Positions 1,534 to 37,820 are shown, numbered from the stretch's first letter. The stretch is 37,820 nucleotides of DNA from a virus (IMGVR_UViG_3300014927_000119); one strand, 5' to 3'. Notes: generated by a model from the letters alone, not told the origin. Numbers and translations are program-made.

Positions 1534-1596
1534 ACGCGTAATACAATGAAATAAAAGGATTTATTTCTGGTCACGTCCACACATTGACCACATCGA

Positions 1597-1623
1597 CAAA
1601 AAAAGCCCCTCGACTGAGGGGCT
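1597..1623 (-). terminator. Rho-independent terminator downstream of ogr
   Basis: Perfect 8-bp stem AGCCCCTC/GAGGGGCT (1604-1611 / 1616-1623) with loop GACT, followed on the minus strand by a T-run (A-run 1598-1603 on plus). Confidence 0.7.
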
Positions 1624-1635
1624 TCCTGTTTGTAA

Positions 1636-1854: not shown

Positions 1855-1935
1855 CGCGAGCACCTCTTCCGGTTTTGTTGATGGTGCCATTTTAGTTAAA
1901 TTACCCTTATAAAACAAACAGATAAAATAAAAACA

Positions 1936-8238: not shown

Positions 8239-8523
8239 CCGTTTAACTCCGTGGTTAATGGGCGCAACTATTTTCTGTTGTGCAGAGCATGAGACGCTAT
8301 TTGACCTGGCTGGTCAGTGGATGAAACAACAGACAAAGAAAAGGCGGGTAATCCGCCAGCCTGTCATGATTTGCACTCACTCCTTTTCCAACTGACAATT
8401 TACATAGCCCAAACGCTATCAAATCTGACAGTCTGCTTTGAGCGAATAGCGGACCTTACTTTTACTGTGGTATATTAATCAAAGGAAGTTTTTACATCAT
8501 TTAACCCAGAAAGGATGTTATTT

Positions 8524-9153
8524 ATGGCACGAACATACCCGTCAGAATGGAGTAAATTTTGCAAGACCATAAATACGAATAATGGATTTTCATATTACAC
8601 CAGTAATATTAAAGCCCAAATTCTTATTGGAGACATAAATCGATTTGCTGCCAGATATGCTGTGGCAGAGGACTTCAACGGTGTTGATATTATGGGTTCT
8701 ACTATAGAAACAAGGCTTGGGTATGAAGCATTGATGAGGGCATTACTTACCTGGAGCGTCGTGGAAACATATTTTAATATATTTTCAGTCGGATTAACTG
8801 ATGTTTATACATGTTTTCCTTTTACACAAAAGGAAAAGCATGACATCAGAAGCAAACTTAATGCGATTGGTAATGACACAATTAAATTTTATACATTCAT
8901 TTCTTTGAATTGTAACGCTCGTCATAAAACAAACACAAATGACTTTATAGCGAATAATGATTTTAACCCAATAATGCTATTGTCTGCCATTCGTCATGTT
9001 TTTGGCCACGGTGATCTAAGCGCTAATGTTAATAATGTTGACCCTGAATCAATAAATAAAATCGTAAATATCTTAAAGAAAGAAATTATAACTAAAATAG
9101 ATACTTCTTTCTCTTTATTAGTTCAAATGCACCCTAATTATTCTACTGTATGA
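8524..9153 (+). CDS. Hypothetical protein, cargo ORF in the Z/fun slot (209 aa from ATG 8524; 212 aa from ATG 8515)
   Basis: AT-rich ORF on the strand opposite the late genes; AAGGA (8511-8515) 8 nt upstream of ATG 8524; TGgTATATT extended -10-like element at 8468-8476. No motif I can recognise. Confidence 0.6.
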   Translation: MARTYPSEWSKFCKTINTNNGFSYYTSNIKAQILIGDINRFAARYAVAEDFNGVDIMGSTIETRLGYEALMRALLTWSVVETYFNIFSVGLTDVYTCFPFTQKEKHDIRSKLNAIGNDTIKFYTFISLNCNARHKTNTNDFIANNDFNPIMLLSAIRHVFGHGDLSANVNNVDPESINKIVNILKKEIITKIDTSFSLLVQMHPNYSTV

Positions 9154-9298
9154 TCTTGATGATAGGTTTTTACGAAAATAATCACCTTGGGTTATTTGAT
9201 GGATACTTTTTTTAAGTAACCCTTATTAATTTACACATTATTTCTGCCATATCCTTAGCTGATACAAGGTGAACGTCCCACGTAGTATTTTACCATTA

Positions 9299-10048
9299 TT
9301 ACTGGCTATTCAATTCCCACTCAATACAGTCAGTCATCATAGGAATAAAACTTTCACAAGATGAAGAAAAAACCTCGACAAATTTCGATTTATAACTTTC
9401 TGGAACATGCCAATCCTGAGGGATGCTATCTACGATAGATTGATAATAATCAACTGGTATTTCACATATTCTATTCATCCATAATGAATACCCTTCTATA
9501 GCATGGATATTTCCACAATGATATGGCGATGATTCAGTAAATAATTGATTAGGAGTCCAGATAAGGCCGTCCTCACCCCATGTACTGCCATTATTATCTA
9601 CAAAAGCAATGCCAGCATCCATAAATAGCAATTTATCATTTAACAACTTGCAAGTGTCATTTTTTACATCGCCTATAGATAACCAATTATCAAATATTGA
9701 TTTCCCATACAGATCACTCAACTGGTCGTTACTATATTGATAATTTTCAGGCAACTCTTTTAAATCATGTATGAACTCATATGCAATAACACATGAAGTT
9801 GATATTTTTAGTTCACTTCTTACATTTTCAGAAAGTTGTACAACATGGCCTTTTGGCCAAGGCAACTCTATTTTTTCGGCTAGTTTAAAAGCCACATACT
9901 CATTAAATAATGCTTTAAATTCATGCCCAGATTCGTTTAAATATGTTTTTACAAACCACTCTCCCCCTAACTCATCAGTACCTATAAAAGGATGAGAATG
10001 ACTTATCGACTTTTCCAGCTTATCGCTAATGACATTAATTGTTATCAC
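9299..10048 (-). CDS. Hypothetical protein, cargo ORF in the Z/fun slot (249 aa, GTG start)
   Basis: AT-rich ORF; first in-frame start is GTG at 10048-10046 with AAGG 5 nt upstream; contains LGGEWFVK, GDVKND and FMDAG motifs that loosely resemble kinase-fold signatures. Confidence 0.55.
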   Translation of the reverse strand: MITINVISDKLEKSISHSHPFIGTDELGGEWFVKTYLNESGHEFKALFNEYVAFKLAEKIELPWPKGHVVQLSENVRSELKISTSCVIAYEFIHDLKELPENYQYSNDQLSDLYGKSIFDNWLSIGDVKNDTCKLLNDKLLFMDAGIAFVDNNGSTWGEDGLIWTPNQLFTESSPYHCGNIHAIEGYSLWMNRICEIPVDYYQSIVDSIPQDWHVPESYKSKFVEVFSSSCESFIPMMTDCIEWELNSQ

Positions 10049-25527: not shown

Positions 25528-27549
25528 TTATAATTTCCTCAACAATTTCCCATTGTTCTTATCAAAGGATATCATTGTATAGTCATACCCTTCTAATGCC
25601 TCTTTTAAGACATTTTCATCTTCTGATGTAGCAAAAATGATCTGCCCTTGTCCTTTTGTTGTTTCTGCAGCATCTTTAAGTAACTCGGCAAAACTTACTT
25701 TATTTGCTTCTTGTTGACGAGGCTCATCAAACACAATCAATCCAGGGTGATTTGTTTGAAATTTAGAACCAACAACAAATAAACTTATTAAATAACCCCA
25801 AATGATTCTTATTCCATCACTAGCTGATGTGTCAAAACCTATATCATATCCTTCCCTAGTAGGTAAGTAATTATCTTCTGATATTGACACAAGTTTAGAA
25901 TCAAAACTTGTAAAATTATATTTTTCTAATCGTGCAACGACTTCTTTATTAAGAAATTTTAACTTATCGGCATCATTACGCGACAAGAAATTATCTGGCA
26001 ATCCTTTTCTTTTCGCGATAAGCTTTTTATATCTACGGTGTAATGAATCCAACTCCAGTCTAATGTCCAATATACTTTTAATGCCATCGTTAATGGCATT
26101 AATTTTATTCTCAATGTTTATTTTACGTCTCAGAAACTCCTCCTGAACAACCATTGAGGGATATTTTGACTCCCTTAATGCATTAATATCAACTCTAATC
26201 TTGGCTATTTCCCCCTCTAAATCACTCCTCTCAACATCTTTAAGCTTTAATTGCTTTTCACTATCCGACAGAACAAACTCAAATGCTTTTACTTGCTCTT
26301 TAATAAAGTTCAAACTATCTTCATATGTCATCAGATTTTCTTGCGATGAAAAACTTAGCAAATTATCATTATAACTTGCACCACAAGTCGGACAAATATT
26401 TGACATTAAATCTGTTGACTTATACGCATCCGAAGATGATATTTTCTTTAAATCTTCATACTTCCTTTTATCTTCCAACAGATTATACAATCTGTTTTTG
26501 GTCGCCTGAATTTGATATTGAATATAACTTCTATGCTCACAAATCTCTTTAATCTTTAATTCCAGAGAGTTAATTTCATCATTTTTTTGACCTAATAACT
26601 TAACCACTGATAATTGTAAAGTTTGTTCTTCTTGCTCACCAAGAGTGTCAAACTTAATTTCTTGCAACTCTTTTTCCAGTTCATTACGAACATCAACAAT
26701 AGATCTAACGACACTACCATTTTTAATAATCAAATCTATCTTATAATGATCAAATTTTGCCACTGGTTGTTCAGGAATCCCTGTGACAACTGACGACAAT
26801 TTAGAAGCAATAACTTCTGCATTGTGTTTAATTAACTTCCAATCATGATAAATAATATCAAGTTCATTTCTTAACGAACTACGCAATAAAATATTATCAT
26901 TAACATCAAGAGACATTAAAAATTCTAGAGCTCTTTTCTTTGGCTCTTTAATTCCAAATTGTGTTGGTACAGTCGCCATAATTGACGACCATCCTTTTTT
27001 TTGCTCAACATACCATGCAGGGAAAAGTACGGATGGATAAAGAATAGTGTCCTTCCCATTATGGTTTGGAACATTTGGCAAACTCCAACCTATAAAATCA
27101 GCTAACCACTTATAGAAACCACGTTCCCTTTCAGTATCGCCCTCTCTATGTAAAAAATAAGTACCACTCTTACTTTTTACATTATTCTTCTCATCTATAT
27201 AAATAACATTATTATTATCGTGACCGATAATATTCCTTTTCAAAGATGCTTCTATTCCCTTATGATTCTTTATTTTTAGCAAAACATAAGATGATATTAC
27301 ACTAACTTCAACATTATCTTTTGTCGTTAGTGCTCTAGTCAAAGATGGAGGGAATGGGATTTTTCCAGAACCGACACCTAATGCCTTTTCCATCCCAAGT
27401 GCATATGCAATCCCATTCATGCAAGTTGATTTACCATGAGAATTCTCAACTCTTAATAAAAACAAGCCATTTGAAAAAGGTATACTAACACCATAACGCC
27501 CATCCGAAGTATTTGCTACTAACTCCAATGAAATAATTTCCAACGACAT
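25528..27549 (-). CDS. SMC/Rad50/SbcC-like ABC ATPase with a long coiled-coil insert and central CxxC hook-like motif (LmuB-like?)
   Basis: 673 aa; N-terminal SMC_N-like LFLLRVENSHGKSTCMNGIAYALG (Walker A GKST at nt 27424-27435); roughly residues 290-540 are heptad-rich in K/E/L with CPTCG at residues 386-390 (nt 26380-26394); C-terminal Walker B LIVFDEP (D at nt 25726-25728). Last gene of a 3-gene operon. Confidence 0.75.
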   Translation of the reverse strand: MSLEIISLELVANTSDGRYGVSIPFSNGLFLLRVENSHGKSTCMNGIAYALGMEKALGVGSGKIPFPPSLTRALTTKDNVEVSVISSYVLLKIKNHKGIEASLKRNIIGHDNNNVIYIDEKNNVKSKSGTYFLHREGDTERERGFYKWLADFIGWSLPNVPNHNGKDTILYPSVLFPAWYVEQKKGWSSIMATVPTQFGIKEPKKRALEFLMSLDVNDNILLRSSLRNELDIIYHDWKLIKHNAEVIASKLSSVVTGIPEQPVAKFDHYKIDLIIKNGSVVRSIVDVRNELEKELQEIKFDTLGEQEEQTLQLSVVKLLGQKNDEINSLELKIKEICEHRSYIQYQIQATKNRLYNLLEDKRKYEDLKKISSSDAYKSTDLMSNICPTCGASYNDNLLSFSSQENLMTYEDSLNFIKEQVKAFEFVLSDSEKQLKLKDVERSDLEGEIAKIRVDINALRESKYPSMVVQEEFLRRKINIENKINAINDGIKSILDIRLELDSLHRRYKKLIAKRKGLPDNFLSRNDADKLKFLNKEVVARLEKYNFTSFDSKLVSISEDNYLPTREGYDIGFDTSASDGIRIIWGYLISLFVVGSKFQTNHPGLIVFDEPRQQEANKVSFAELLKDAAETTKGQGQIIFATSEDENVLKEALEGYDYTMISFDKNNGKLLRKL

Positions 27550-27550
27550 A

Positions 27551-28027
27551 TTAACCCACCTGAAATATTTTATTAATGTTAGTTTCGGACAGTCCAGCCT
27601 TATGTTTATTTAGCACCAACCTTTCTTCTTTGAACACATCAAGAGAAAGCAATTTCTCAGCGACCTTAAGCCCCTTTTCATTTATTTTGAACGCTCGTTC
27701 ATTTCTCAAAATAAAATCCTCTGCTAATAATAGCTGTATTGCTCTATCTAAAGTTGGATCCAATCTTACTTCAGGCTTTAAACCTTCTTTGTTTAAAAGC
27801 CAGAATTCAAACATTGCTTCATTATTCTCTGACTTTAACATCCAATTAATTAAATGAAGTTTTTTTAAAGAACAGCAACCAGCTCTCCCTGTGACAAGGA
27901 ATATTATCAGCAACAAACTGCAACGCCACAATGGTCTCATATCACATGGCAAATGTTCAGGTCGTTTATTAAACGTAAACGGCCTTCCTATTATTTCATC
28001 TATCGTTATATGCATTTGCTTTTCCAT
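27551..28027 (-). CDS. Small partner protein of the 3-gene operon (158 aa; possible kleisin/LmuC-like adaptor)
   Basis: ORF separated by 1 nt from both neighbours (stop at 27551-27553, ATPase ATG at 27549); AT-rich; no motif I can recognise. Confidence 0.55.
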   Translation of the reverse strand: MEKQMHITIDEIIGRPFTFNKRPEHLPCDMRPLWRCSLLLIIFLVTGRAGCCSLKKLHLINWMLKSENNEAMFEFWLLNKEGLKPEVRLDPTLDRAIQLLLAEDFILRNERAFKINEKGLKVAEKLLSLDVFKEERLVLNKHKAGLSETNINKIFQVG

Positions 28028-28028
28028 T

Positions 28029-28949
28029 CTAAAAATCTAAAGGGCATCTTATAAGCCAATCAGAAATAACTCCCCATGTTATCTTATCCAAGTCAGCCTG
28101 TTTAAGCGTACTAACTTCCTCTTCAATACATTTCTTTAACAAAGCGATTTCATCTTTCATTATATCTGATGGTTTCGCATCTGATGAAGTAAGAAGAAAG
28201 AGACCTACCAAATTACGTTCTCTATGTTGAACACAGTTATAGATAATTTCATAGATATCAACCCAGTCTCTCTTCAAAGCATCCAGCAAGTTTTGATAAT
28301 CAAGATATTTTTGTATTAAAAACTCTCTATATAAACCCTGCCTAGATACATCATCATTTATCTTAGGTAATTTTAAATTTAGCTTATCTAAAAAAGATGT
28401 ATTTTCACTAATAAAGTTAGCAGCATTCTCAGCCGTCGCATCATTTATATTAAAGCTTAATTGATAGTTATTTTTGCGAAGAAAGAACGCTTCTTCTATA
28501 TAATTTCGATCTGTTTGCACAACTATTTGAAAATCATCAGCAACGTAAGAAATCCCTAACTCTCTTACTTTTAATGATTTTTTTGTGCAATATTGACTTA
28601 ATTTCGCCGATTTATTATATGGTGTAGCTAATATCCAGCGGCTAATTTTTAATGTGCCAAAAAGCTCCTCTAATTCTTTAATGTTATCCTGAGAAAACTT
28701 TTTTATATCAGTATAAATCTTTTTTTGTTGCGCTTTATAAAGCTTATCAATATCACTCGACTGCTCAGGCAAGTAACACTGAAAAACATGACCACTCAGA
28801 GTGTAACACTCCAGCCCAAAGTCGCCTCCATGCTCATCTGGCAAGTCACAACAGTTAGCAGGCTTATAATGTAGCCAAACAATATTTTTGAAATATGATT
28901 CCCACGCTTTTGGGTCACTATAAGGATCGTTATACATCGCCAAGCCCAT
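28029..28949 (-). CDS. First gene of the 3-gene operon (306 aa; candidate effector/sensor, LmuA-like?)
   Basis: ORF ending 1 nt before the next gene; AT-rich; acidic/Cys-containing N-terminal segment CCDLPDEHGGDFGLECY; function not assignable from sequence alone. Confidence 0.55.
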   Translation of the reverse strand: MGLAMYNDPYSDPKAWESYFKNIVWLHYKPANCCDLPDEHGGDFGLECYTLSGHVFQCYLPEQSSDIDKLYKAQQKKIYTDIKKFSQDNIKELEELFGTLKISRWILATPYNKSAKLSQYCTKKSLKVRELGISYVADDFQIVVQTDRNYIEEAFFLRKNNYQLSFNINDATAENAANFISENTSFLDKLNLKLPKINDDVSRQGLYREFLIQKYLDYQNLLDALKRDWVDIYEIIYNCVQHRERNLVGLFLLTSSDAKPSDIMKDEIALLKKCIEEEVSTLKQADLDKITWGVISDWLIRCPLDF

Positions 28950-29059: not shown

Positions 29060-31339
29060 TTACCACCTCGAAAATGCTTCCCACGCCTTCTGAACATGGT
29101 AATGAAATTCTTTTGTGCCATAGTTCACAATTGCACCACGCGCCAGCGCCTCAAGCTCCCATCGCTGCGGCCTGATACCGTTCTGAGCAAGGTCTACACG
29201 GATACGGGTAATTTGCAATCGTTCCGACCGGGTCAGCCTGGCTGATGGCGCTATTTCATGCGGTTTTAACGGGCTTCCGTTTCTTTGCTGACGATTTGGT
29301 GTTTTCAGGCCGTGTTTTAATGCACCCCTGAGCGTCCTCACGACCTCCGGGTCATTCCATTCGATAACACCGTCATCAACCAGATTTAGCACTGCTGCGG
29401 CGTGCTCAGAAGGTGTGGGAGCCGGTAACGAAGTATCACCACCGGTGAGCTTTCCACAGTTATTGACAGGACTCCGAGGCGCGGCGATGCCGCTTTTTAA
29501 AGTCAAAGGCTCAACGACCGGAACTTTCGGAACAATGCGCCAGTCCGTCGTTCTGGTGATATGAATATGACGCGCGCCGAGATGCGGCGCGTAAATGCCG
29601 ACCACTCTCTCGACTTCTTCCTCGTACTCGTTAACTTCATCCGACGGGCGACGGGCAACCCTGACAGTCTGACAATCGCGCGGGACATTTGCCCCACCCT
29701 GCGCGCTGATATACAACGCAAAATCACCACTGTCTGCGGCGGCGCGTGCAGCCTCGACGCGCTCGTCAAACTCATCAGCAATGCTGACGCCGCTAGGCAA
29801 TTTGCGTAGTTCACGGTAAGCCCCCATTGTCGGCAGGCCAACCGTTTTAAATTGTGGGATACGCCACGTTGACGCCCATGCGGTAACAGCCGCTGCAGTA
29901 TCTTTCAGCGGCCTGCCGGTATCGTTATCGAGCTGACCATCCAGTGCATAGCCGTCGATGTTTTTTGAAATGTATTTCGCGATATACCCCGCAGCACCGC
30001 CCCGGTTAAGATGTTTTGCCTGAAAACGGTTTCGCGCAGCTCCTCTTTCGTCGCCATCCTCTTTGAGCGCGTAGCGACGCATGATTTCAATAATCTGGTT
30101 ACGCTGGCGTGGATTACAAAAAAGCATCATATGCCAGTGCGGCGTTCCGTCGTGGTGTGGCTCGACGACTCGCAAACCGTAGACCTGTAAATCATTATCC
30201 TTGAATGCCGTGCGCATCAGGCTCCAGATACGGCAGAGATATCGCTGCGCATCCTTTGGATTAAATGCCTCATCATTCCAGCCGTGATTAAGCTGGACGG
30301 TTTTACTTTCGCCTTTTCCGACCTGACGTGTCGGGTGATACTTTGACGGCGCGGTCAGCGTGATAAACATCCCCACATCGCCCTCTGCGGCGGCGTAACG
30401 CTCAATACCGGCAATGGTGTTCATCAGCTCCATCCGGCGAATTTCAGGATTAGAAATACTGCCCATAACCTTACTGATAAGGTCGATGCGCTCGCCGGTT
30501 TCCCTGTTTTCAAGGTCACACGATTTAAGAAATTCCAGATTTGCCTGGCGGCGCGCACGCACATCACGAATGGCATGTTTACTGGCATAAGGAGAACGGT
30601 CTTTATTCACCTCCCCGACAGCAATCAGTAACGCCTCATGCCAGCGCATACGCTGGCCTTTAAGCTGACTAATCCACCACTCATCGTTAAACAGGCGGGC
30701 AATGGCAGAATATGCCTGCCTCGTGGTCATCTGTCCTTTACGGTATTTTTTCCAGAAAAGCGGGGAAATATTGAAAGCACGTGCAGCGCCAGCAACATGA
30801 CCATACAAATGCGCCTGCGCCTCATCTGTAAACAGCGATTCTTTCTCGCCATGTGCATCAACCCAGGCATCGCAGAGTTCCTCATACATCATGAAAAGCT
30901 GCGATGAAATACGGGCGGCAAACTTTTTCAGCTCCTTGTCATTCATCCCCGGCAGACGCGCATAATGGTCACGCTCTGCCAGAAACAGCAACGACGCGTC
31001 GGTGTTCATTTCATGGCGCTGATTCACGCGCTCAATACGCGGCCATAAACGGCGCTGAAAAGTGGATGTGAGGAAATAAAACCCGTGTAGCGGGCTTTTA
31101 TTGCGCCGGATGTAGTCATAACGTGAAGTAAACAGCGAGCGCAAAAAGTAAGGCAGGCGGTTAATCGTGGATAAAACACCTTGCACCTGACGCATCTCGT
31201 CACGTGTAAGGGGTCTTTCGCGCCCGACAGCCTCGCGTGGCGTATTCCATGCATAAGCACCGGTAAACGCCTTACCGGTGCCTGCGGCAAACGCAGACGG
31301 AGGTACGCAGGTGTATTGCTCCTGGAAAGAATGACTCAT
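29060..31339 (-). CDS. A: Replication initiation protein A (rolling-circle nickase)
   Basis: 759 aa (P2 gpA is 761 aa as I recall); last gene of the early operon; ATG overlaps the upstream stop (ATGA). Confidence 0.9.
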   Translation of the reverse strand: MSHSFQEQYTCVPPSAFAAGTGKAFTGAYAWNTPREAVGRERPLTRDEMRQVQGVLSTINRLPYFLRSLFTSRYDYIRRNKSPLHGFYFLTSTFQRRLWPRIERVNQRHEMNTDASLLFLAERDHYARLPGMNDKELKKFAARISSQLFMMYEELCDAWVDAHGEKESLFTDEAQAHLYGHVAGAARAFNISPLFWKKYRKGQMTTRQAYSAIARLFNDEWWISQLKGQRMRWHEALLIAVGEVNKDRSPYASKHAIRDVRARRQANLEFLKSCDLENRETGERIDLISKVMGSISNPEIRRMELMNTIAGIERYAAAEGDVGMFITLTAPSKYHPTRQVGKGESKTVQLNHGWNDEAFNPKDAQRYLCRIWSLMRTAFKDNDLQVYGLRVVEPHHDGTPHWHMMLFCNPRQRNQIIEIMRRYALKEDGDERGAARNRFQAKHLNRGGAAGYIAKYISKNIDGYALDGQLDNDTGRPLKDTAAAVTAWASTWRIPQFKTVGLPTMGAYRELRKLPSGVSIADEFDERVEAARAAADSGDFALYISAQGGANVPRDCQTVRVARRPSDEVNEYEEEVERVVGIYAPHLGARHIHITRTTDWRIVPKVPVVEPLTLKSGIAAPRSPVNNCGKLTGGDTSLPAPTPSEHAAAVLNLVDDGVIEWNDPEVVRTLRGALKHGLKTPNRQQRNGSPLKPHEIAPSARLTRSERLQITRIRVDLAQNGIRPQRWELEALARGAIVNYGTKEFHYHVQKAWEAFSRW

Positions 31340-32343
31340 TCACATACACCGGCATAGACACTACTGCAAACGGCTTTATCATTCGCCGAAGCCAGTAAAT
31401 CAAACTGAGTACCCCCACGCGTTGTCATTGTCCAGTCATGGTAGGTTTCAATTCCGTATGCCTCGACTGTTACAACCTCAATACGACGTTCTGCGCGTAA
31501 CGGATCATGTGTGGATGGGAAAAAAGTGGAATTTCCCCGACGGGAGCACGACGCAACCAGTCGTTCCCATTCAGCAACCCGCTTTATTTCCTCCGGCCAC
31601 CGGCGAAAAATTTCTGCCAGTTCAGATTTACGGACATGAATACATGGCATACAACCAACACGGCCACACCCCTGCTGATATAACGGATTTGGCTTAATGT
31701 CATGTCTTCTGGCTATTGCAAATACATCTTCATGCTTCCAGTGCAAAATCGGGCGGTATACATGCAATCCGGGGGTGTTGTCTGCATCCTCTTCCCAGAC
31801 AGGTAAAGCTGCGCGTGATGGCGATTCCTGAGCACGCACTCCCTGCCAGCTAATCACTTCCTCAAATTCATTGAGTAAAGGCAGGATTACCTGAGAACGC
31901 ACGGGTTCATGTTTCAGTTCAAATGTGCAAAATCTGGCTTTGGTTGATGGGAAACGCCCCTTCCACAGACACAAATCAAGAAACGGGATACCCGTTGGTT
32001 TGAGAATTTCCAGCGCACAACTGATGCGCTGGTGCGCTTCTTCTTCCGACATTCCACAATCGTTAACCAACAAATCAGGCCATTTGGTCTGGATAAACTT
32101 GCGCTTTGATTCAATCCGGCAGGAAAAATCAGCCCTGACCCTTTTAATTGGGCCAAGCCGTTTTTCCAGATAATCCAGATATTTCATTGTCTGTGGATGT
32201 TCATGTCCCGTATCAGCAAAAACCGGCAATATGGGTACATTTTCTTCAATAGCGACAAGCCACTGAGCAAGGCTGTCCTTTCCACCTGAAACAAAAATAA
32301 CATTGATGGTATTTTCAGTATGGCAACGAGCATCAGTAATCAT
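31336..32343 (-). CDS. PP-loop ATP pyrophosphatase, PAPS-reductase-like protein
   Basis: 335 aa; N-terminal VIFVSGGKDS (PP-loop motif SGGxDS); Cys cluster GCGRVGCMPC near residue 230; translationally coupled to A. Confidence 0.7.
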   Translation of the reverse strand: MITDARCHTENTINVIFVSGGKDSLAQWLVAIEENVPILPVFADTGHEHPQTMKYLDYLEKRLGPIKRVRADFSCRIESKRKFIQTKWPDLLVNDCGMSEEEAHQRISCALEILKPTGIPFLDLCLWKGRFPSTKARFCTFELKHEPVRSQVILPLLNEFEEVISWQGVRAQESPSRAALPVWEEDADNTPGLHVYRPILHWKHEDVFAIARRHDIKPNPLYQQGCGRVGCMPCIHVRKSELAEIFRRWPEEIKRVAEWERLVASCSRRGNSTFFPSTHDPLRAERRIEVVTVEAYGIETYHDWTMTTRGGTQFDLLASANDKAVCSSVYAGVCE

Positions 32344-32618
32344 TCAGACGCTCCTCTGGAGAACGCCTCTGAACAACGCTTGCTGAGCTGCTCAACCTGC
32401 GTGTTTAAATCGGCAAAAGATTTTGCGCTTCCGGTCAGAATATCGTGATGCATCAGGCCGGAAACGAGCTGGCTTAATTTCGGATAATAACCAACCACCG
32501 CCAGCCATTCCTGACCGGCGTTTTTACCGCTTTCCGCTCTCTTTTTCTCGTGGAGAAGAAACTGAAAGCTGTCACTGGTAACGACATAACGTTCGCCAAT
32601 TTCAATACGAATACTCAT
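32340..32618 (-). CDS. Small early protein (P2 Orf83-like position)
   Basis: 92-aa ORF, overlaps neighbours by 4 nt on each side. Confidence 0.6.
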   Translation of the reverse strand: MSIRIEIGERYVVTSDSFQFLLHEKKRAESGKNAGQEWLAVVGYYPKLSQLVSGLMHHDILTGSAKSFADLNTQVEQLSKRCSEAFSRGASE

Positions 32619-32839
32619 GCCGTTCTCCGGTAATGCTTGTTTTTTGCTTCAAAGACTGACTGGCAGGAAACACAACGCGTGGCTGACGGATAAGCCGCAC
32701 GACGGGCAGCAGGTATTGGCGCGTCACACTCTTCGCAAACCAGCGCAGAAACACCGCAATGTTTTACCCTTGCCGCGTTAATCTGGCGCTCCAGTAATTC
32801 AGCCTGTTGTTCCTGAATAAAATCTACGTTGTCCGGCAT
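32615..32839 (-). CDS. TraR/DksA-type C4 zinc-finger protein (P2 Orf82-like position)
   Basis: 74 aa with CEECDAPIPAARRAAYPSATRCVSCQ (CxxC-N17-CxxC), typical of phage TraR/DksA-like proteins. Confidence 0.7.
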   Translation of the reverse strand: MPDNVDFIQEQQAELLERQINAARVKHCGVSALVCEECDAPIPAARRAAYPSATRCVSCQSVFEAKNKHYRRTA

Positions 32840-33141
32840 TACCAGCTCCTTTTGTCGTTCAGCTTCTTAAATTCATCAGCGCAATAACTGGCGATTTCTG
32901 TCGTTAATTTCGTCAGTTCATCCACTGAGGAAATTTGCTTGTGGAATACAGCACGTTTAACAAGTAAATTGACCACATCAGACAGGAGGTTTAATTCATT
33001 CTGATAAATCGCGATAACAGATTCAGTGATGTCGCGTTTTTCTTTATCAAGACAAAGTTGAATAAGAGACAAATCACCATTTTCCATAACGGCGATTTTT
33101 AAGGCGTTATTCAGTAATACAACTGAATGAGAACAGGACAT
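32839..33141 (-). CDS. Small early protein (P2 Orf81-like position)
   Basis: 100 aa from ATG 33141 (the track ORF begins one codon earlier at TTG); overlaps the upstream stop (TGATG). Confidence 0.55.
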   Translation of the reverse strand: MSCSHSVVLLNNALKIAVMENGDLSLIQLCLDKEKRDITESVIAIYQNELNLLSDVVNLLVKRAVFHKQISSVDELTKLTTEIASYCADEFKKLNDKRSW

Positions 33142-33365
33142 CAAAGTACCTCCCCGCGAGATAATCCGATATTGTGAAATTTTTCCGACTCCTGACTGAG
33201 CAGCTCGACTATCTCCACGCGGGATAACTCCGCCTTTGTGATGTGGTGAATCATGGCGTCAAGATGAGAAGAAAAGCGCGTCGCCGCGTCGGCCTGTGCT
33301 TCGGTTCTGGCCTGTTGCAGCAGTAATGCGTATTTACCGCACTGATTTTCAGAAACTGTATGCAT
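33141..33365 (-). CDS. Small early protein (P2 Orf80-like position)
   Basis: 74 aa from the internal ATG 33365 with GGAG upstream (track ORF starts at TTG 33398). Confidence 0.5.
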
Positions 33366-33428
33366 GACTTTCTCCAGGCAAAAAGAAGCCCCGCACAATT
33401 AAGTGCGTTAAAAACTCTGGTTAATTAC

Positions 33429-33929
33429 TTAATGCAGATATTGCTCTGGTTTTACCGACGTCAGAATTGTCGGTGCATACTCAAACAGGCTGAATAATTC
33501 ACGTAATGCACGGAATAAAGCATCACGCCAGTAACATGACTCTTCATTAATTCGCCAGTATGGCTGGTTGAACTCTTTTTCAGTCAATCCGGCATGCATA
33601 AATAAAGTACGACGCTGACTGACTGTTAAAAAACTAATATATGCATACTCACTTGCACCGACCTGACGGCGTTTTGAGAATGCCCCACGCAATTCATCAA
33701 TTGCACAAACCAGCCGTTCACGTTCGACGTCGTTCATTTCTTCAAAACGCATCGTTGCGTGACGTTGTTTTAACTGCGCATGAAAGCAAACTGTTAGCCG
33801 TTCGCGCTCCATCATCTGATTATAATAATCACATGTATCCTGCCAGCGAGGAACGGCAAGATGCTTACCAATTATCCGGCGCATGGTTGCTGGCTGTTTT
33901 TCAACGAGATTGAGCGTCATCACTGTCAT
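33429..33929 (-). CDS. B: Replication protein B
   Basis: 166 aa from ATG 33929 (MTVMTLNLVEKQPA...), GGAGG about 8 nt upstream; P2 gpB is 166 aa. Confidence 0.85.
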   Translation of the reverse strand: MTVMTLNLVEKQPATMRRIIGKHLAVPRWQDTCDYYNQMMERERLTVCFHAQLKQRHATMRFEEMNDVERERLVCAIDELRGAFSKRRQVGASEYAYISFLTVSQRRTLFMHAGLTEKEFNQPYWRINEESCYWRDALFRALRELFSLFEYAPTILTSVKPEQYLH

Positions 33930-34096
33930 TTCCATACCCTCCGGCTTTTCAGAAAGGTCAGAGCCTTTTTTAACGGACTCTGTTTTTTGGTGCGGATAAT
34001 GATTCCCTTACGCCCCTTACCGTGGGTGATGGTGAAGTCAATCGCCCTGGGGCTTTCGTTACGCAGTAACTGAGCAATACAACGAGGCTCATTCAT
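33926..34096 (-). CDS. Small early protein (P2 Orf78-like)
   Basis: 56 aa from ATG 34096 with AAGGAG 6 nt upstream, just after the cox stop. Confidence 0.6.
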   Translation of the reverse strand: MNEPRCIAQLLRNESPRAIDFTITHGKGRKGIIIRTKKQSPLKKALTFLKSRRVWK

Positions 34097-34106
34097 ACGG
34101 TTCTCC

Positions 34107-34382
34107 TTAACGTGGTTCACCGAGACCTAACCACATCAACCAGCCGTCACGAATCTCTTTAGGGCGGCTTTCATAAGCCAGTTTTAGTCCGTTATTCCAT
34201 GCCGGAAGGTATACCCAATATTCACCTGCACGACCTGAAGCTGATTGTGGATCGGTCATATCAATTACAGGCAGCTTTCCTTTATCGATCATCCGACGAA
34301 CCGCTCCTGTCGATTTTCCTATTAGTTTTGCGAACTCCTGATAAGGAATCGCATCAGTCATGAGTGTTACTTGCTTGCTCAT
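34107..34382 (-). CDS. cox: Cox, excisionase and repressor of the Pc promoter
   Basis: 91 aa, P2 Cox length; first gene of the early operon, divergent from C. Confidence 0.9.
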   Translation of the reverse strand: MSKQVTLMTDAIPYQEFAKLIGKSTGAVRRMIDKGKLPVIDMTDPQSASGRAGEYWVYLPAWNNGLKLAYESRPKEIRDGWLMWLGLGEPR

Positions 34383-34450
34383 GTCGTCCCCCAGCCCTCA
34401 TGAATTGCGTTTAATGCCTTATAATGCCTTTTAGTGCCCACATCCAAGCA

Positions 34451-34493
34451 CTAAACAATCTACATCTAAACTAAATACTATTGAGATCTAAAC
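34451..34493. promoter_or_regulatory. Immunity switch region with direct operator-like repeats ATCTAAAC (34464-34471 and 34486-34493) plus a third CTAAAC (34451-34456)
   Basis: Two identical 8-mers spaced 22 bp start-to-start in the cox/C intergenic region; consistent with P2 C repressor binding direct repeats flanking the early promoter. Confidence 0.5.
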
Positions 34494-34496
34494 ACT

Positions 34497-34796
34497 ATGT
34501 CAAACACGATAAGCGAGAAGATAGTCTTAATGCGAAAATCAGAGTATTTGAGCAGACAACAACTTGCTGATTTAACAGGGGTACCGTATGGCACGCTGAG
34601 TTACTATGAAAGTGGTCGTTCAACACCTCCAACAGATGTCATGATGAACATCCTGCAGACCCCACAATTCACCAAATACACTTTATGGTTCATGACCAAT
34701 CAGGTCGCTCCTGAGTCCGGGCAAATTGCGCCCGCTCTCGCACACTTTGGGCAAAACGAAACAACGTCGCCCCACTCCGGTCAAAAGACTGGTTAA
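34497..34796 (+). CDS. C: Immunity repressor C
   Basis: 99 aa, P2 C length; helix-turn-helix-like QQLADLTGVPYGTLSYYESG. Confidence 0.9.
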   Translation: MSNTISEKIVLMRKSEYLSRQQLADLTGVPYGTLSYYESGRSTPPTDVMMNILQTPQFTKYTLWFMTNQVAPESGQIAPALAHFGQNETTSPHSGQKTG

Positions 34797-34911
34797 CAAT
34801 TCATCGTGAATATATTCATCACAAGTGCCTACTATTGGTGGCTAAATTTCAGCCACCACGAAAAAAGCGATTAGTAGTCGCAAAAAAACACACCACTCGG
34901 AGGGTTTTCTG

Positions 34912-35925
34912 ATGGCAATCAAAAAACTCGATGATGGTCGATATGAAGTGGACATCCGCCCTACTGGACGTAATGGAAAACGCATCCGTAGGAAGTTTGA
35001 TAAGAAAAGCGAAGCTGTCGCTTTCGAGAAATACACGTTGTACAACCACCACAATAAAGAATGGCTATCAAAACCAACAGACAAGCGACGTCTGTCGGAG
35101 CTGACACAGATCTGGTGGGATTTAAAGGGTAAACACGAAGAGCATGGGAAATCTAATCTTGGAAAAATTGAAATCTTCACAAAAATAACGAATGACCCAT
35201 GCGCATTTCAAATTACGAAATCGCTTATCAGCCAGTACTGCGCCACCCGAAGAAGTCAGGGTATTAAACCTTCGAGTATCAATCGTGATTTAACATGTAT
35301 TAGCGGCATGTTTACAGCCCTGATTGAAGCGGAGTTATTCTTTGGTGAGCACCCTATCAGAGGGACAAAAAGGCTTAAGGAGGAAAAACCAGACACAGGC
35401 TATCTCACGCAGGAAGAAATTGCCTTACTGCTTGCTGCTCTTGACGGCGACAACAAAAAGATTGCGATTCTTTGCCTGAGCACTGGAGCACGTTGGGGAG
35501 AAGCAGCTCGTTTGAAAGCAGAAAATATCATCCATAACCGCGTCACGTTTGTTAAAACGAAAACAAACAAACCACGCACCGTCCCGATCTCAGAGGCTGT
35601 TGCCAAAATGATCGCGGATAACAAACGAGGTTTTTTATTCCCTGATGCTGATTACCCTCGCTTCAGACGAACAATGAAAGCAATAAAACCGGATTTGCCA
35701 ATGGGGCAAGCCACACATGCACTAAGGCACAGCTTTGCCACTCATTTCATGATTAATGGAGGAAGTATTATCACGCTACAACGGATACTAGGTCACACGC
35801 GGATTGAGCAAACTATGGTTTACGCTCATTTTGCGCCAGAGTACCTTCAGGACGCCATTTCTCTTAATCCGCTAAGAGGTGGTACTGAGGCCGAGAGTGT
35901 CCACACAGTGTCCACAGTAGAGTAA
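34912..35925 (+). CDS. int: Tyrosine integrase
   Basis: 337 aa (P2 Int is 337 aa); C-terminal HxxRHxxxxxxxxxGxxxxxxxxxLGH...Y pattern (ALRHSFATHF...LGHTRIEQTMVYAHF); adjacent to attR. Confidence 0.92.
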   Translation: MAIKKLDDGRYEVDIRPTGRNGKRIRRKFDKKSEAVAFEKYTLYNHHNKEWLSKPTDKRRLSELTQIWWDLKGKHEEHGKSNLGKIEIFTKITNDPCAFQITKSLISQYCATRRSQGIKPSSINRDLTCISGMFTALIEAELFFGEHPIRGTKRLKEEKPDTGYLTQEEIALLLAALDGDNKKIAILCLSTGARWGEAARLKAENIIHNRVTFVKTKTNKPRTVPISEAVAKMIADNKRGFLFPDADYPRFRRTMKAIKPDLPMGQATHALRHSFATHFMINGGSIITLQRILGHTRIEQTMVYAHFAPEYLQDAISLNPLRGGTEAESVHTVSTVE

Positions 35926-36188: not shown

Positions 36189-36506
36189 TCACTCTCCACA
36201 TTTGAATGTCAGACGAGCGACGCCATGTAATCCTGCACCTTCTGTCTTCAGGTCAACTATCTGCATTTTTTTGCCCTGAGTAACACAGAAATGAGCTGCA
36301 TCATTTTTTACTATATTTTCTGCACCAGAAATTCTGCCCCTGGCTAAAGAAGCTTCGGCTTCGGTGTAGTATTGGTTATCGAGTTTACGCTGAATATTAC
36401 TTTTATATGCAAGACCAAATTTACCGATACTTGTCTCATCATTATGTACAGCACACCCAGACATAAGAAAAACACTAATTAATGATATAGCAGCTATCTT
36501 TTTCAT
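36189..36506 (-). CDS. yegR: YegR, small lipoprotein (host gene)
   Basis: 105 aa from ATG 36506 (MKKIAAISLISVFLMSGC..., lipobox MSGC) with GGAAGG upstream; location next to yegS as in E. coli. Confidence 0.8.
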   Translation of the reverse strand: MKKIAAISLISVFLMSGCAVHNDETSIGKFGLAYKSNIQRKLDNQYYTEAEASLARGRISGAENIVKNDAAHFCVTQGKKMQIVDLKTEGAGLHGVARLTFKCGE

Positions 36507-36920
36507 CTTACCTTCCCCCATTAAATACCAACGACACGCTCTGGTGTTAAAATATAATAATGGCATGATTATTATAATTGAATAGGATTATAATAAATGT
36601 TCTGTACAACATTTCCTACATAAGTAGGAATTACATACACGGAGGCCCTTCCGGGTAACCCCATGGGGGGGTTAATATATTTTTAATAGTATATTGAAGA
36701 TGCCACTGTTTAGTTGAATATTAGGTATATGCTCTTTTTTGAAATTTACCTATGGCTACCGTTAACATTCACTGTCCCCATTGCAAGCTCCTGGTGGTAA
36801 CCACTGAATCCTCTATACTTGAACTGATTTTTTATCCTCCGACTTTCATCCTGTTCTGACTCCACCTTTTCTTTTCTGCTCTACACTATCTACAGACCAA
36901 TCATAAAGGCACATACGATC

Positions 36921-37820
36921 ATGGCAGAATTTCCCGCCAGCTTACTGATTCTTAATGGCAAAAGTACTGACAATTTACCATTGCGCGAAGCAATTATGCT
37001 GTTGCGTGAGGAAGGAATGACGATCCATGTGCGGGTCACCTGGGAGAAAGGCGATGCCGCACGATATGTAGAGGAGGCCCGGAAGTTGGGCGTCGCAACG
37101 GTGATTGCCGGTGGTGGCGATGGCACCATTAATGAAGTTTCTACGGCGTTGATTCAGTGTGAGGGGGATGACATACCCGCGCTAGGAATTTTGCCATTAG
37201 GAACCGCCAATGATTTTGCCACCAGTGTAAGGATTCCTGAGGCACTGGATAAGGCGCTGAAACTGGCAATTGCCGGTGACGCCATTGCGATAGATATGGC
37301 GCAGGTCAACAAACAAACCTGTTTTATTAATATGGCGACAGGCGGATTTGGGACGCGTATTACCACAGAAACGCCGGAAAAATTAAAAGCCGCGCTGGGT
37401 GGCGTCTCTTACATCATTCATGGCTTAATGCGCATGGATACTCTGCAACCGGACCGTTGTGAGATCCGCGGTGAAAACTTTCACTGGCAAGGTGACGCCC
37501 TGGTCATTGGTATTGGTAACGGGCGTCAGGCCGGTGGCGGTCAGCAATTGTGCCCGAACGCGTTAATTAACGATGGCTTGCTGCAACTGCGCATTTTTAC
37601 CGGCGATGAAATTCTTCCGGCTCTCGTATCAACATTAAAATCTGACGAAGATAACCCGAATATTATCGAAGGCGCTTCGTCGTGGTTTGATATACAAGCC
37701 CCACACGAAATCACTTTTAATCTTGATGGCGAACCGTTGAGCGGACAAAACTTTCATATTGAAATACTTCCGGCGGCGTTGCGTTGTCGATTACCACCAG
37801 ATTGCCCATTGTTGCGTTAA
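36921..37820 (+). CDS. yegS: YegS, lipid kinase (DAG-kinase-like catalytic domain; host gene)
   Basis: 299 aa; GGGDGT motif ([12 protein letters not shown]); N-terminus [15 protein letters not shown] matches my recollection of YegS; stop at the window end. Confidence 0.9.

What the first reader, a model, noticed from the sequence alone, without database searches (positions are those of the whole stretch)
31336..32343. PP-loop (SGGKDS) PAPS-reductase-like gene inserted between the small early ORFs and replication gene A
As I recall, the P2 early operon runs cox-orf78-B-orf80-81-82-83-A. This prophage has four small ORFs in the orf80-83 positions plus an extra 335-aa gene, translationally coupled on both sides (ATGA overlaps). 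It has the PP-loop motif SGGKDS and a Cys cluster (GCGRVGCMPC), so it belongs to the PAPS-reductase / DndC / SspD-like ATP-pyrophosphatase fold. Its placement in the early operon suggests a role in DNA or nucleotide modification or counter-defence rather than sulfur assimilation.
Basis: partly seen in the sequence, partly recalled or inferred. Interest (0 to 1): 0.55.

Follow-up and report, generated by a model that had tools for sequence, protein, structure and literature searches.

The report
Phage PAPS-reductase-like early accessory gene
This is a real but already catalogued accessory gene of P2/186-type phages (the counterpart of phage 186 orf84): a PAPS-reductase-fold enzyme of unproven function that most likely moves sulfur to help the phage modify DNA or evade host defences, not to assimilate sulfate.

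Summary
A 335-aa ORF lies on the minus strand at 31336..32343. It has ATGA overlaps at both ends, an SGGKDS PP-loop and the GCGRVGCMPC stretch.

Relative to P2, 1055 nt (31307-32361) replace the 35-nt orf83/A junction.

It is not new. Phage 186 orf84 is 76.6% identical and sits in the same place, directly upstream of gene A. Its record calls it non-essential. The gene belongs to Pfam PF01507 and PHROG 424. RefSeq annotates it in 44 of 5426 complete E. coli genomes, against 1725 genomes with a P2-type A gene.

It fails the CysH, APS-reductase and DndC family models by wide margins.

Family-wide invariants are:
- the canonical ATP-type PP-loop;
- a DndC/APS-reductase-like Cys triad (C139, C231, C234);
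- a flexible C-terminal tail ending in ...C-x7-C-E, with the penultimate Cys invariant.

dN/dS is about 0.06. In relatives, the most frequent annotated neighbours (apart from gene A itself in the P2-like loci) are DNA methyltransferases. A PAPS-Dam fusion in a Vibrio phage belongs to a two-gene cassette that confers anti-Dnd activity.

Best reading, which is inferred and not shown: an early-expressed, ATP-dependent sulfur-transfer enzyme acting in DNA modification or counter-defence. I rate it a known kind, function unresolved, moderate-to-low interest.

The parts
31336..32343 (-). 335-aa PAPS-reductase-like PP-loop protein, the orthologue of phage 186 orf84
   Evidence: ORF list. PF01507 E=5.4e-35. 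PHROG 424 E=8.6e-86. 76.6% identity to 186 NP_052288 at the same position. dN/dS 0.064 against 186. AF2 model pLDDT 93.7.
32272..32289 (-). PP-loop SGGKDS (residues 19-24), the canonical ATP-pyrophosphatase form
   Evidence: Read from the sequence. S19 G20 G21 D23 S24 are invariant in 71 homologues. It aligns with the degenerate SSSFG of CysH.
31927..31929 (-). Cys139 in the F-C-T-x-x-L-K motif, an inferred Fe-S ligand
   Evidence: Invariant. The same motif occurs in lambda NinC as FCTDRLK. It resembles the CCxxRK motif of APS reductases. DndC shares one Cys at this place with APS reductase (PMC12193691).
31642..31656 (-). G-C-M-P-C (residues 230-234): a conserved CxxC
   Evidence: C231 100%, C234 97%. 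It aligns with Cys228/Cys231 of P. aeruginosa APS reductase 2goy and with the CxxC of M. tuberculosis 7lhr. GCxxC is present in 120 of 126 cluster representatives.
31339..31368 (-). C-terminal tail CSSVYAGVCE (residues 326-335), with a penultimate invariant Cys
   Evidence: 101 of 126 representatives end exactly in C-[E/D], and 96 have a second Cys 5-9 residues upstream. pLDDT falls to 61-71 here against >90 elsewhere.
32340..32343 (-). ATGA overlap: stop of the orf83-like gene and start of this gene
   Evidence: Sequence. GAGGAG at 32351-32356, 7 nt upstream.
31336..31339 (-). ATGA overlap: stop of this gene and start of replication gene A
   Evidence: Sequence. The 186 record notes that translation to the end of orf84 appears necessary for translation of A.
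31307..32361 (.). 1055-nt cassette that replaces 35 nt of the P2 orf83/A junction
   Evidence: BLASTN of the window against P2 AF063097. The 186 copy is 72.6% identical in nucleotides, while the flanks are barely alignable.
32340..32618 (-). orf83-like DUF5405 gene (92 aa), the upstream neighbour
   Evidence: PF17399. P2 annotation.
29060..31339 (-). Replication gene A (759 aa), the downstream neighbour
   Evidence: PF05840 E=1e-123. 95.5% nucleotide identity to P2 A.

Best explanation
The ORF is an intact accessory gene kept under strong selection. It sits in the early lytic operon of a P2-type prophage and is the orthologue of phage 186 orf84 (PHROG 424, Pfam PF01507).

It arrived as a roughly 1-kb cassette placed exactly at the orf83/A junction, so that translational coupling into gene A is kept.

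The protein has the PAPS-reductase fold, but three features set it apart from sulfate-assimilation enzymes:
- a canonical ATP-type PP-loop;
- a three-Cys site equivalent to the [4Fe-4S] site of APS reductase and DndC;
- a flexible tail ending in an invariant Cys-Glu, with a second Cys about 7 residues upstream.

Most likely mechanism (inferred). The gene is expressed from Pe only during lytic growth. The enzyme binds ATP and adenylates an oxygen on its target. It then delivers sulfur obtained from the host cysteine desulfurase IscS, either through the cluster or through a persulfide on the tail Cys334. Cys326 acts as the resolving thiol.

The most probable target is nucleic acid, above all phage DNA. 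The most probable benefit is protection from, or interference with, modification-dependent host defences such as Dnd or Ssp phosphorothioate systems. Sulfate assimilation is not the likely role.

Shown here: gene, position, coupling, fold, motifs, conservation, purifying selection, rarity, methyltransferase linkage. Inferred: ATP use, Fe-S binding, sulfur transfer, DNA target, counter-defence role.
For: - Identity and position.
- Operon membership: no minus-strand promoter in front of the gene; ATGA overlaps and a Shine-Dalgarno; the Pe/C/cox region is 97.8% identical to P2.
- Enzyme rather than filler: dN/dS 0.064-0.10; 20 invariant columns that include the whole PP-loop.
- Not CysH, APS reductase or DndC: scores of 46.7 vs cut-off 165, 53.1 vs 235 and 21.3 vs 290.
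- Fe-S-type CxxC aligns with APS reductase Cys228/231. DndC uses the equivalent triad plus a flexible fourth Cys (PMC12193691).
- C-terminal Cys-Glu tail: 101 of 126 representatives, with low pLDDT.
- Fold neighbours after the sulfonucleotide reductases include the Fe-S thiolases TtuA and NcsA and the sulfur-transfer enzyme LarE.
- Context, P2-like loci: a DNA methyltransferase lies within 5 genes in 35 of 77 viral loci, and Dam lies directly upstream in 20.
- Context, non-P2 loci: DNA methyltransferases are the commonest neighbour family.
- Context, named phages: methylases lie beside homologues in phiE125, Parlo, S1 and Alfacinha1.
- A PADLOC 'type II MTase' model contains this domain.
- The same slot in other P2-likes carries Dam or a Lar-like restriction-alleviation gene.
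- Experiment on a relative: a two-gene cassette with a PAPS-Dam fusion lets a Vibrio podovirus escape Dnd. Others have proposed a counter-defence role (PMC13551039).
Against: - There is no biochemical or genetic test of this protein or of 186 orf84. The only recorded phenotype is 'not essential'.
- The phage has no DndD/SspC-type ATPase and no DndE/SspB DNA-recognition partner next to the gene. PT synthesis is reported to need a PAPS-domain protein plus an NTPase (PMC12914056).
- The protein is not basic (pI 6.5), so nothing suggests that it binds DNA on its own.
- In this window, and in 186, no methyltransferase is adjacent.
- The Vibrio case is a fusion, was tested together with a second gene, and its PAPS domain is shorter.
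- Methyltransferases are common in early regions of temperate phages anyway, and I did not measure a proper background rate.
- All four motif positions of sulfonucleotide reductases have counterparts here, so an APS-like substrate is not excluded.
Confidence: 0.45

Rival explanations
1. It is a genuine sulfonucleotide (APS/PAPS) reductase, an auxiliary metabolic gene. The tail cysteine attacks the sulfate of APS or PAPS, and thioredoxin releases sulfite. This would boost cysteine supply during infection.
For: The best sequence and structure matches are APS/PAPS reductases. All four sulfonucleotide-reductase motif positions have counterparts: P-loop, DTGxE..T, GVRxxES..R, and a Cys on a C-terminal tail. 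The CxxC aligns with the APS-reductase cluster ligands. PHROGs files the family as an auxiliary metabolic gene.
Against: - Scores are far below every CysH and APS-reductase model cut-off.
- The P-loop is the full ATP-pyrophosphatase SGGKDS, not the degenerate form of CysH.
- There is no ECGLH motif; the tail is ...YAGVCE-COOH.
- About 150 residues have no counterpart in the reductases: only 180-186 of 335 align.
- The E. coli host already has cysH (background knowledge).
- The context is early, replication and methylase genes, never sulfur-assimilation genes.
Confidence: 0.1
2. It is an active PP-loop adenylating or thiolating enzyme, but its target is not DNA. The target could be tRNA (as for TtcA, TtuA, ThiI and MnmA), a free nucleotide, or a signalling molecule. 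The purpose could be to escape anticodon nucleases or to alter a nucleotide pool or signal.
Against: By sequence the family lies within PF01507 with DndC, SspD and BrxP, not with the tRNA thiolase families. No RNA-binding domain such as THUMP or PUA was detected. The recurrent linkage and fusion is to DNA methyltransferases.
Confidence: 0.2
3. Its role is mostly non-catalytic. Either it is a DndC/SspD mimic that titrates host partners (IscS, DndD/E), or it is merely an ORF whose translation delivers ribosomes to gene A.
For: The 186 record says that translation to the end of orf84 is needed for A translation. Gene A here has no good Shine-Dalgarno of its own. The protein shows homology to DndC and SspD.
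Against: P2 achieves the same coupling with orf83 alone, so a 1-kb gene is not needed for it. The invariant PP-loop and Cys residues, and dN/dS of about 0.06 across the whole length, argue for catalysis. The regions of DndC that bind DndD (residues 433-482 and the C-terminal helix, PMC12193691) have no counterpart in a 335-aa protein.
Confidence: 0.08
4. It is a prophage-encoded defence or superinfection-exclusion gene that benefits the lysogen.
For: PAPS-reductase-domain proteins occur in defence systems: Dnd, Ssp, BREX type 4, type IV-B CRISPR, and candidate NAP-linked systems. P2-like prophages are rich in defence cargo, and this one carries Lamassu.
Against: The gene lies inside the Pe early lytic operon, between cox/B and A, and has no promoter of its own. 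The repressor C shuts that operon off in lysogens (P2 biology; annotation). The known P2 defence hotspots are elsewhere: after A, and at Z/fun.
Confidence: 0.05

Closest known systems
Phage 186 Orf84 (CP84; NP_052288)
   Same: 76.6% identical over the full length. It is the same size (334 vs 335 aa) and has the same CSSVYAGVCE end. It sits directly upstream of replication gene A and overlaps it.
   Different: The surrounding early genes differ: 186 has apl-cII-fil-dhr and an exonuclease gene, while here the backbone is P2 cox-B-orf80-83. The flanks are not homologous at the DNA level, so the gene moves as a cassette. The function of Orf84 is itself unknown; the record says 'not essential'.
DndC / SspD / BrxP (sulfur-inserting PAPS-reductase-domain proteins of DNA phosphorothioation systems)
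   Same: PF01507 fold, canonical SGGKDS PP-loop, and one Cys plus a CxxC at the Fe-S position. A role in host-virus conflict is plausible.
   Different: - It scores far below the family thresholds: DndC TIGR03183 21.3 vs 290.4; PADLOC SspD only E=3e-21.
- It is much smaller than DndC (335 vs 540 aa).
- It lacks the DndD-binding regions.
- It has no DUF4007 fusion.
- No DndD/SspC/BrxC ATPase or DndE/SspB partner is encoded nearby.
- It carries a terminal Cys-Glu tail that, in the papers read here, is not described for DndC.
Assimilatory APS/PAPS reductases (CysH; PDB 2goy, 7lhr, 6vpu, 1sur)
   Different: The P-loop is ATP-type instead of degenerate. A single Cys replaces the CC pair. The tail reads YAGVCE-COOH instead of ECGLH. 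There is an extra helical insert (about residues 74-128) and an extra C-terminal domain (about residues 237-320). All curated model cut-offs are missed.
PAPS-Dam fusion p0018 of Vibrio crassostreae podoviruses (Piel et al., bioRxiv 10.1101/2021.05.05.442762)
   Same: A phage-encoded PAPS-reductase domain in a variable early region, functionally tied to a Dam methylase. It is the only relative with an experimental phenotype: the cassette confers escape from Dnd.
   Different: There the domain (aa 4-175) is fused to Dam and was tested together with a second gene. Here the protein stands alone at 335 aa, with a long C-terminal extension, and has no adjacent methylase.
Lambda NinC (NP_040635)
   Same: A distant homologue (hhalign probability 99.4%, E=1.6e-21). 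It shares DTGxEHP, FCTxxLK, GIRADE and a CxxC, and has a Cys dyad ending in C-E near the C-terminus (SCSESCE). It is a non-essential early-region gene of a temperate coliphage.
   Different: Only 27% identical over 192 columns. Its PP-loop is SGGRTS. The C-E is followed by 18 more residues. It lies in the nin region, not beside a replication initiator.

Membership tests
Pfam PF01507 PAPS_reduct / PP-loop ATP pyrophosphatase superfamily | Domain model score above the gathering threshold | tested here: met
   121.4 bits against a cut-off of 22.5; residues 15-236 cover profile positions 3-174 of 175.
Pfam PF01507 PAPS_reduct / PP-loop ATP pyrophosphatase superfamily | SGGxDS PP-loop motif at the first strand-helix junction | tested here: met
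   SGGKDS at residues 19-24, invariant in 71 homologues. The model shows strand 12-17 followed by helix 22-33.
Pfam PF01507 PAPS_reduct / PP-loop ATP pyrophosphatase superfamily | ATP to AMP + PPi activity | not testable with these tools
   Needs purified protein.
Phage 186 Orf84 family / PHROG 424 | Full-length sequence match | tested here: met
   PHROG 424 E=8.6e-86 over residues 1-334. 76.6% identity to 186 NP_052288.
Phage 186 Orf84 family / PHROG 424 | Position directly upstream of the rolling-circle initiator gene A, with overlapping stop and start | tested here: met
   ATGA at 31336-31339. 186 has the same layout. GpA lies immediately downstream in 32 of 77 viral loci.
CysH / PAPS reductase (TIGR00434, PRK02090, TIGR02057) | Curated model cut-off | tested here: not met
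   46.7 vs 165.1, 67.4 vs 154 and 39.9 vs 254.2. Only residues ~153-254 are matched.
CysH / PAPS reductase (TIGR00434, PRK02090, TIGR02057) | C-terminal ECGLH catalytic motif | tested here: not met
   The protein ends ...CSSVYAGVCE, with no ECGLH. A tail Cys is present, but in a different motif.
Assimilatory APS reductase (TIGR02055) | Curated cut-off, and four Fe-S ligands as CC...CxxC | tested here: not met
   53.1 vs 235.3. The CxxC is conserved and aligned. The CC pair is replaced: HMMER puts E146-P147 there, and only the single invariant C139 lies nearby.
DndC (TIGR03183) | Curated model cut-off | tested here: not met
   21.3 vs 290.4, covering residues 132-209 only. PADLOC DndC models give E=1e-7 at best.
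DndC (TIGR03183) | Encoded together with the DndD ATPase and DndE | tested here: not met
   The neighbours are orf83-like and GpA. No DndD/DndE-like family appeared among the neighbours of 77 viral loci.
DndC (TIGR03183) | [4Fe-4S] cluster on one Cys plus CxxC plus a flexible fourth Cys | tested here: inconclusive
   C139, C231 and C234 are conserved, and C125 or the tail Cys are candidates for the fourth ligand (pattern from PMC12193691). No coordinates or metal analysis were available.
SspD / BrxP | Match to the family model, plus SspB/SspC (or BrxC/PglZ/BrxL) neighbours or a DUF4007 fusion | tested here: not met
   PADLOC SspD E=3e-21 in two partial stretches; BrxP E=8e-13 over residues 132-257. 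There is no partner gene, and Pfam finds a single domain only.

The most novel reading that the evidence does not exclude
The Orf84/NinC-type phage proteins are self-contained thiolation enzymes. A PP-loop adenylation site, a three-Cys [4Fe-4S] site and a built-in swinging C-terminal arm (penultimate Cys, as in TusE/DsrC) would together install a sulfur-containing modification on phage DNA or on a nucleotide. That modification could be a phosphorothioate or a thio-base. It would be made without any DndD/E or SspB/C-type partner, which would give temperate phages a new, methylase-linked way to escape restriction.
Probability: 0.15. Interest if true: 0.75.

Novelty: already known. Interest (0 to 1): 0.33.

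Why it matters
Stand-alone PAPS-reductase-like genes are among the commonest unexplained genes in temperate phages. Examples are 186 orf84, lambda ninC, Burkholderia phiE125 gp57 and many virome 'cysH' calls. They are routinely filed as sulfur-metabolism auxiliary genes.

If they are in fact DNA-modifying or counter-defence enzymes, that labelling is wrong. A widespread anti-restriction chemistry would then be waiting to be characterised.

This locus adds no new kind of element. It does offer a clean test system:
- a rare cargo allele, present at about 1.5% of P2-type A genes in E. coli;
- a genetically tractable P2 backbone whose natural relatives lack the gene;
- specific residues to mutate (D23, C139, C231, C234, C326, C334).

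Tried and rejected
- Foldseek against AFDB50 was unavailable.
- A profile hit to PDB 21fy_C 'PptA' (E=4e-5) could not be interpreted. A literature search gave nothing relevant, and the hit vanished with a single-sequence query.
- The anti-Dnd protein JSS1_004 turned out to be a kinase/shut-off protein and is unrelated.
- The Eganvirus comparative paper does not mention the gene.
- Longer family members (360-450 aa) were checked for fused domains such as ParB or a methylase. Pfam found only PF01507.
- Model coordinates are not exposed, so I could not measure Cys-Cys distances or see where the tail docks.
- I did not obtain a background rate for methyltransferase proximity in phage early regions. 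The linkage is descriptive, not a statistical test.
- A promoter scan found no private promoter. Terminator-like hits inside the gene exceed shuffles (9 vs 3.2), but they are weak consensus matches and I did not pursue them.
Full report
**Observation**

The ORF list shows a 335-aa ORF at 31336..32343 on the minus strand.
- SGGKDS at residues 19-24 (nt 32272-32289).
- GCGRVGCMPC at residues 225-234.
- An ATGA at 32340-32343, where the stop of the 92-aa upstream ORF overlaps this gene's start.
- An ATGA at 31336-31339, where this gene's stop overlaps the start of the 759-aa gene A.
- A GAGGAG Shine-Dalgarno 7 nt upstream of the start codon.

No sigma-70-like promoter lies on the minus strand in front of the gene.

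The neighbours are the P2 early genes. They are B, DUF2732 (orf80), DUF5405 (orf81), a TraR/DksA zinc finger (orf82), DUF5405 (orf83), and GpA (PF05840, E=1e-123). This is the order annotated in P2 itself.

BLASTN against P2 AF063097 gives 95.5% identity over 29106-31306 and 97.8% over 32362-35000. So 1055 nt (31307-32361) replace the 35-nt orf83/A junction of P2.

**What it is**

The protein hits Pfam PF01507 (PAPS_reduct) at E=5.4e-35 and PHROG 424 at E=8.6e-86.

The decisive comparison is with phage 186. Its orf84 product (NP_052288) is 76.6% identical over the full length. It lies directly upstream of gene A and overlaps it. Its record carries this note: 'unknown function; not essential. 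translation to end of orf84 appears necessary for translation of A protein'. Yersinia phage P37 and a 'Peduovirus P2' record carry 81.5%-identical copies in the same place.

The 186 copy is 72.6% identical at the DNA level, while the flanks hardly align. The gene therefore travels as a cassette between P2-like backbones.

RefSeq annotates it as a 'phosphoadenosine phosphosulfate reductase domain-containing protein' in 44 of 5426 complete E. coli genomes. Thirty of these are at 95% identity or more. In all 25 rows listed, the replication endonuclease gene lies alongside, and in the 17 high-identity rows a DUF5405 gene does too. The P2-type A gene itself occurs in 1725 genomes, at 2030 places.

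Among the 70 closest GpA loci in IMG/VR that have enough upstream sequence:
- 2 carry the gene;
- 4 carry a Dam methylase there;
- about 6 carry other cargo, including a Lar-type restriction-alleviation domain and an ASCH/DUF3850 protein;
- 36 have the plain P2 arrangement.

So this is a rare, exchangeable cargo gene in a variable slot, not part of the core.

**It is a working enzyme**

dN/dS against 186 orf84 is 0.064, with dS saturated.

An exhaustive search of 1.84 billion cluster representatives finds 2445 relatives at E<=1e-3. In an alignment of 71 full-length members at 36-82% identity, the invariant residues are S19 G20 G21 D23 S24, D44, E48, C139, K144, G168, R177, N219, L221, Y222, R228, V229, G230, C231, E260 and C334. 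C234 is 97% conserved, C125 85% and C326 81%.

A count free of my selection filter, over 126 cluster representatives of at least 280 aa, gives:
- 101 end exactly in Cys-Glu/Asp;
- 96 have a second Cys 5-9 residues upstream;
- 120 have GCxxC;
- 107 have SGGxDS.

The family hallmark is therefore a C-terminal ...C-S-S-x-Y-G-L-C-E-COOH tail. Here it reads CSSVYAGVCE.

**Structure**

The AlphaFold2 model is confident (pLDDT 93.7, pTM 0.91). The exception is the last ~15 residues, at pLDDT 61-71. That fits a mobile tail.

The best matches are assimilatory APS/PAPS reductases:
- Foldseek: E about 3e-8.

**Relation to characterised families**

All curated models are missed by wide margins:

| Model | Score | Cut-off |
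|---|---|---|
| PRK02090 | 67.4 | 154 |
| TIGR00434 (cysH) | 46.7 | 165.1 |
| TIGR02055 (APS reductase) | 53.1 | 235.3 |
| TIGR03183 (DndC) | 21.3 | 290.4 |

PADLOC gives partial hits to SspD (3e-21), BrxP (8e-13) and DndC (1e-7). It also hits a 'type II MTase' model that evidently contains this domain.

Against CysH, the PP-loop aligns with the degenerate SSSFG. Here it is the full ATP-pyrophosphatase motif, as in DndC and the tRNA thiolases. That comparison is background knowledge; PMC10853773 calls DndC a PP-loop ATP pyrophosphatase.

C231 and C234 align with Cys228 and Cys231 of P. aeruginosa APS reductase, and with the CxxC of the M. tuberculosis enzyme.

The CC pair of APS reductases is not kept. 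The invariant F-C139-T-x-x-L-K144 does resemble CCxxRK, and the resemblance is clearer in lambda NinC, which has FCTDRLKLVPF. E. coli DndC is described as using Cys146 + Cys280 + Cys283, shared with APS reductase, plus a flexible fourth Cys (PMC12193691). The phage family shows the same pattern.

Lambda NinC is a distant homologue (hhalign 99.4%, E=1.6e-21). It has its own ...SCSESCE... near the C-terminus.

**Context in relatives**

In 77 IMG/VR loci that carry the gene:
- GpA follows immediately in 32.
- A D12-class Dam methylase (PF02086, E=1.6e-58) lies within five genes in 28, and directly upstream in 20.
- C5 methylases (PF00145) and a second D12 family add more. In total, 35 of 77 loci have a DNA methyltransferase within five genes.

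In 29 non-P2-like loci, DNA methylase families are the commonest Pfam hits among the 95 proteins within two genes. There are eight of them: five C5, two N6/N4 and one D12.

Named phages show the same thing:
- In phiE125, the gp56 cytosine methylase overlaps the gp57 homologue.
- Serratia phage Parlo has dam two genes downstream.
- Stenotrophomonas phage S1 and Acidovorax phage Alfacinha1 have methylases two or three genes away.

No DndD/SspC-type ATPase, no DndE/SspB and no cysteine desulfurase was found next to any of them. In this window and in 186 no methylase is adjacent.

**Literature**

The only experiment on a relative is Piel et al. (bioRxiv 10.1101/2021.05.05.442762). They moved a two-gene cassette into a sensitive Vibrio podovirus. 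One gene encodes a PAPS-reductase-domain/Dam fusion. The transfer gave full plating on a Dnd-carrying host.

A 2026 NAR paper notes Aca-regulated PAPS reductases in phages and proposes that they help evade R-M or PT systems (PMC13551039). A 2024 paper on Thermus viruses lists such homologues in lambda, marine phages and archaeal viruses, and says they 'deserve further investigation' (PMC11437467).

PT synthesis is reported to need a PAPS-domain protein plus an NTPase. Isolates with a PAPS-reductase gene but without dndD showed no PT (PMC12914056).

**Most likely mechanism**

These steps are inferred.
1. The gene is transcribed from Pe with cox-B-orf80-83-A, so only when the repressor C is inactive. 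It is translated by ribosomes that come from orf83 and pass on to A.
2. The enzyme binds ATP at the PP-loop and adenylates an oxygen of its substrate.
3. Sulfur from host IscS is delivered either through a [4Fe-4S] cluster held by C139, C231 and C234, or as a persulfide on the mobile Cys334. Cys326 acts as the resolving thiol. ThiI and MnmA use such Cys pairs. TusE and DsrC carry sulfur on a penultimate Cys. Both statements are background knowledge.
4. Linkage and fusion to methyltransferases, and the anti-Dnd result, point to phage DNA (or the host's PT machinery) as the target, and to escape from modification-dependent restriction as the benefit.

I put about 0.45 on this overall. I am much more confident (over 0.9) in the family assignment, and confident that it is not a housekeeping-type CysH.

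**Rivals**

- A true APS/PAPS reductase (0.1). All four reductase motif positions have counterparts, so this is not excluded.
- A thiolase acting on tRNA or a nucleotide (0.2).
- A mimic or a mere coupling ORF (0.08). The invariant catalytic motifs argue against it, as does P2's ability to couple A to orf83 directly.
- A lysogen-protecting defence gene (0.05). Its place in the repressed early operon argues against it.

**Weak points**

- No direct functional data exist for this protein.
- The pI is 6.5 and no DNA-recognition partner is present.
- The methylase linkage has no measured background.
- I could not inspect model coordinates.

**Verdict**

The element is an already catalogued family, the 186 orf84 / PHROG 424 family. 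The counter-defence idea is already in print as a hypothesis.

This analysis adds three things:
- the exact cassette boundaries;
- the rarity figures;
- a family-wide signature: ATP-type PP-loop, a DndC-like Cys triad, and a terminal Cys-x(6-7)-Cys-Glu tail shared distantly with lambda NinC. This signature gives a concrete, testable mechanism.

Noticed in passing
window 25528-28949 (minus strand): A complete three-gene Lamassu-type defence cassette lies just downstream of gene A, at the position where P2 carries orf91, tin and old. It comprises LmuA (28029..28949, PADLOC E=1e-29), LmuC (27551..28027, E=2.5e-23) and LmuB (25528..27549, E=1e-98). The LmuA gene has only 33% G+C against 50% for the window.
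   Followed up: partly
L166 (E. coli AH21I008, NZ_CP196251.1) 1495-3383: A prophage with a 99.9%-identical copy of the PAPS-reductase-like gene carries a retron Ec48 (reverse transcriptase plus effector) in the post-A hotspot instead of Lamassu. The early-operon cargo and the hotspot cargo therefore assort independently.
   Followed up: no
window 8515-10048: Two non-P2 ORFs lie between tail genes, probably at the Z/fun hotspot. One is a 249-aa HipA-like kinase (PF20613, E=1.6e-7) on the minus strand. The other is a 212-aa ORF on the plus strand with no family hit.
   Followed up: no
window 1-1362 and 36189-37820: The prophage is flanked by a U32 peptidase gene (yegQ-like) on one side and by yegR and yegS on the other. 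RefSeq names yegR and yegS in a near-identical locus. Integrase is at 34912..35925.
   Followed up: partly
L138, L147, L150, L155, L160, L161 (IMG/VR P2-like loci), just upstream of gene A: The slot between the small early ORFs and A is a cargo site in other P2-like phages. It holds D12 Dam methylases, a DUF7415 plus Lar restriction-alleviation protein, an ASCH/DUF3850 protein, an Ead/Ea22-like protein, and unassigned 116-aa and 301-aa proteins.
   Followed up: partly
L167 (lambda NC_001416) 782-1654: Lambda NinC is a distant homologue of this family. It shares the FCTxxLK and CxxC motifs and a C-terminal Cys dyad (SCSESCE), but its PP-loop is altered to SGGRTS. Two long-known unexplained genes of model coliphages may therefore share one chemistry.
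   Followed up: partly
window 31307-31339 vs P2: The first 11 residues of GpA differ between phages that carry the PAPS-like gene and those that do not. tblastn matches of the A N-terminus start at residue 12 in P2-type records, and at residue 1 only in the PAPS-carrying records (plus PhiR44_1, whose upstream gene is an unnamed hypothetical protein). So the cassette brings its own A start and coupling junction.
   Followed up: partly
window 32340-32618 and 32839-33144: The orf81-like and orf83-like genes both belong to DUF5405 (E=4e-33 and 1.6e-13), so they are paralogues. PHROGs labels both 'replication initiation protein'. Their function is not recorded in the P2 annotation.
   Followed up: no
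PDB 21fy_C: A profile of the family hits a 270-aa solved chain named 'PptA' (E=4.3e-5, profile positions 186-250). I could find no description of it. It may be the nearest solved relative of the region just after the CxxC.
   Followed up: partly
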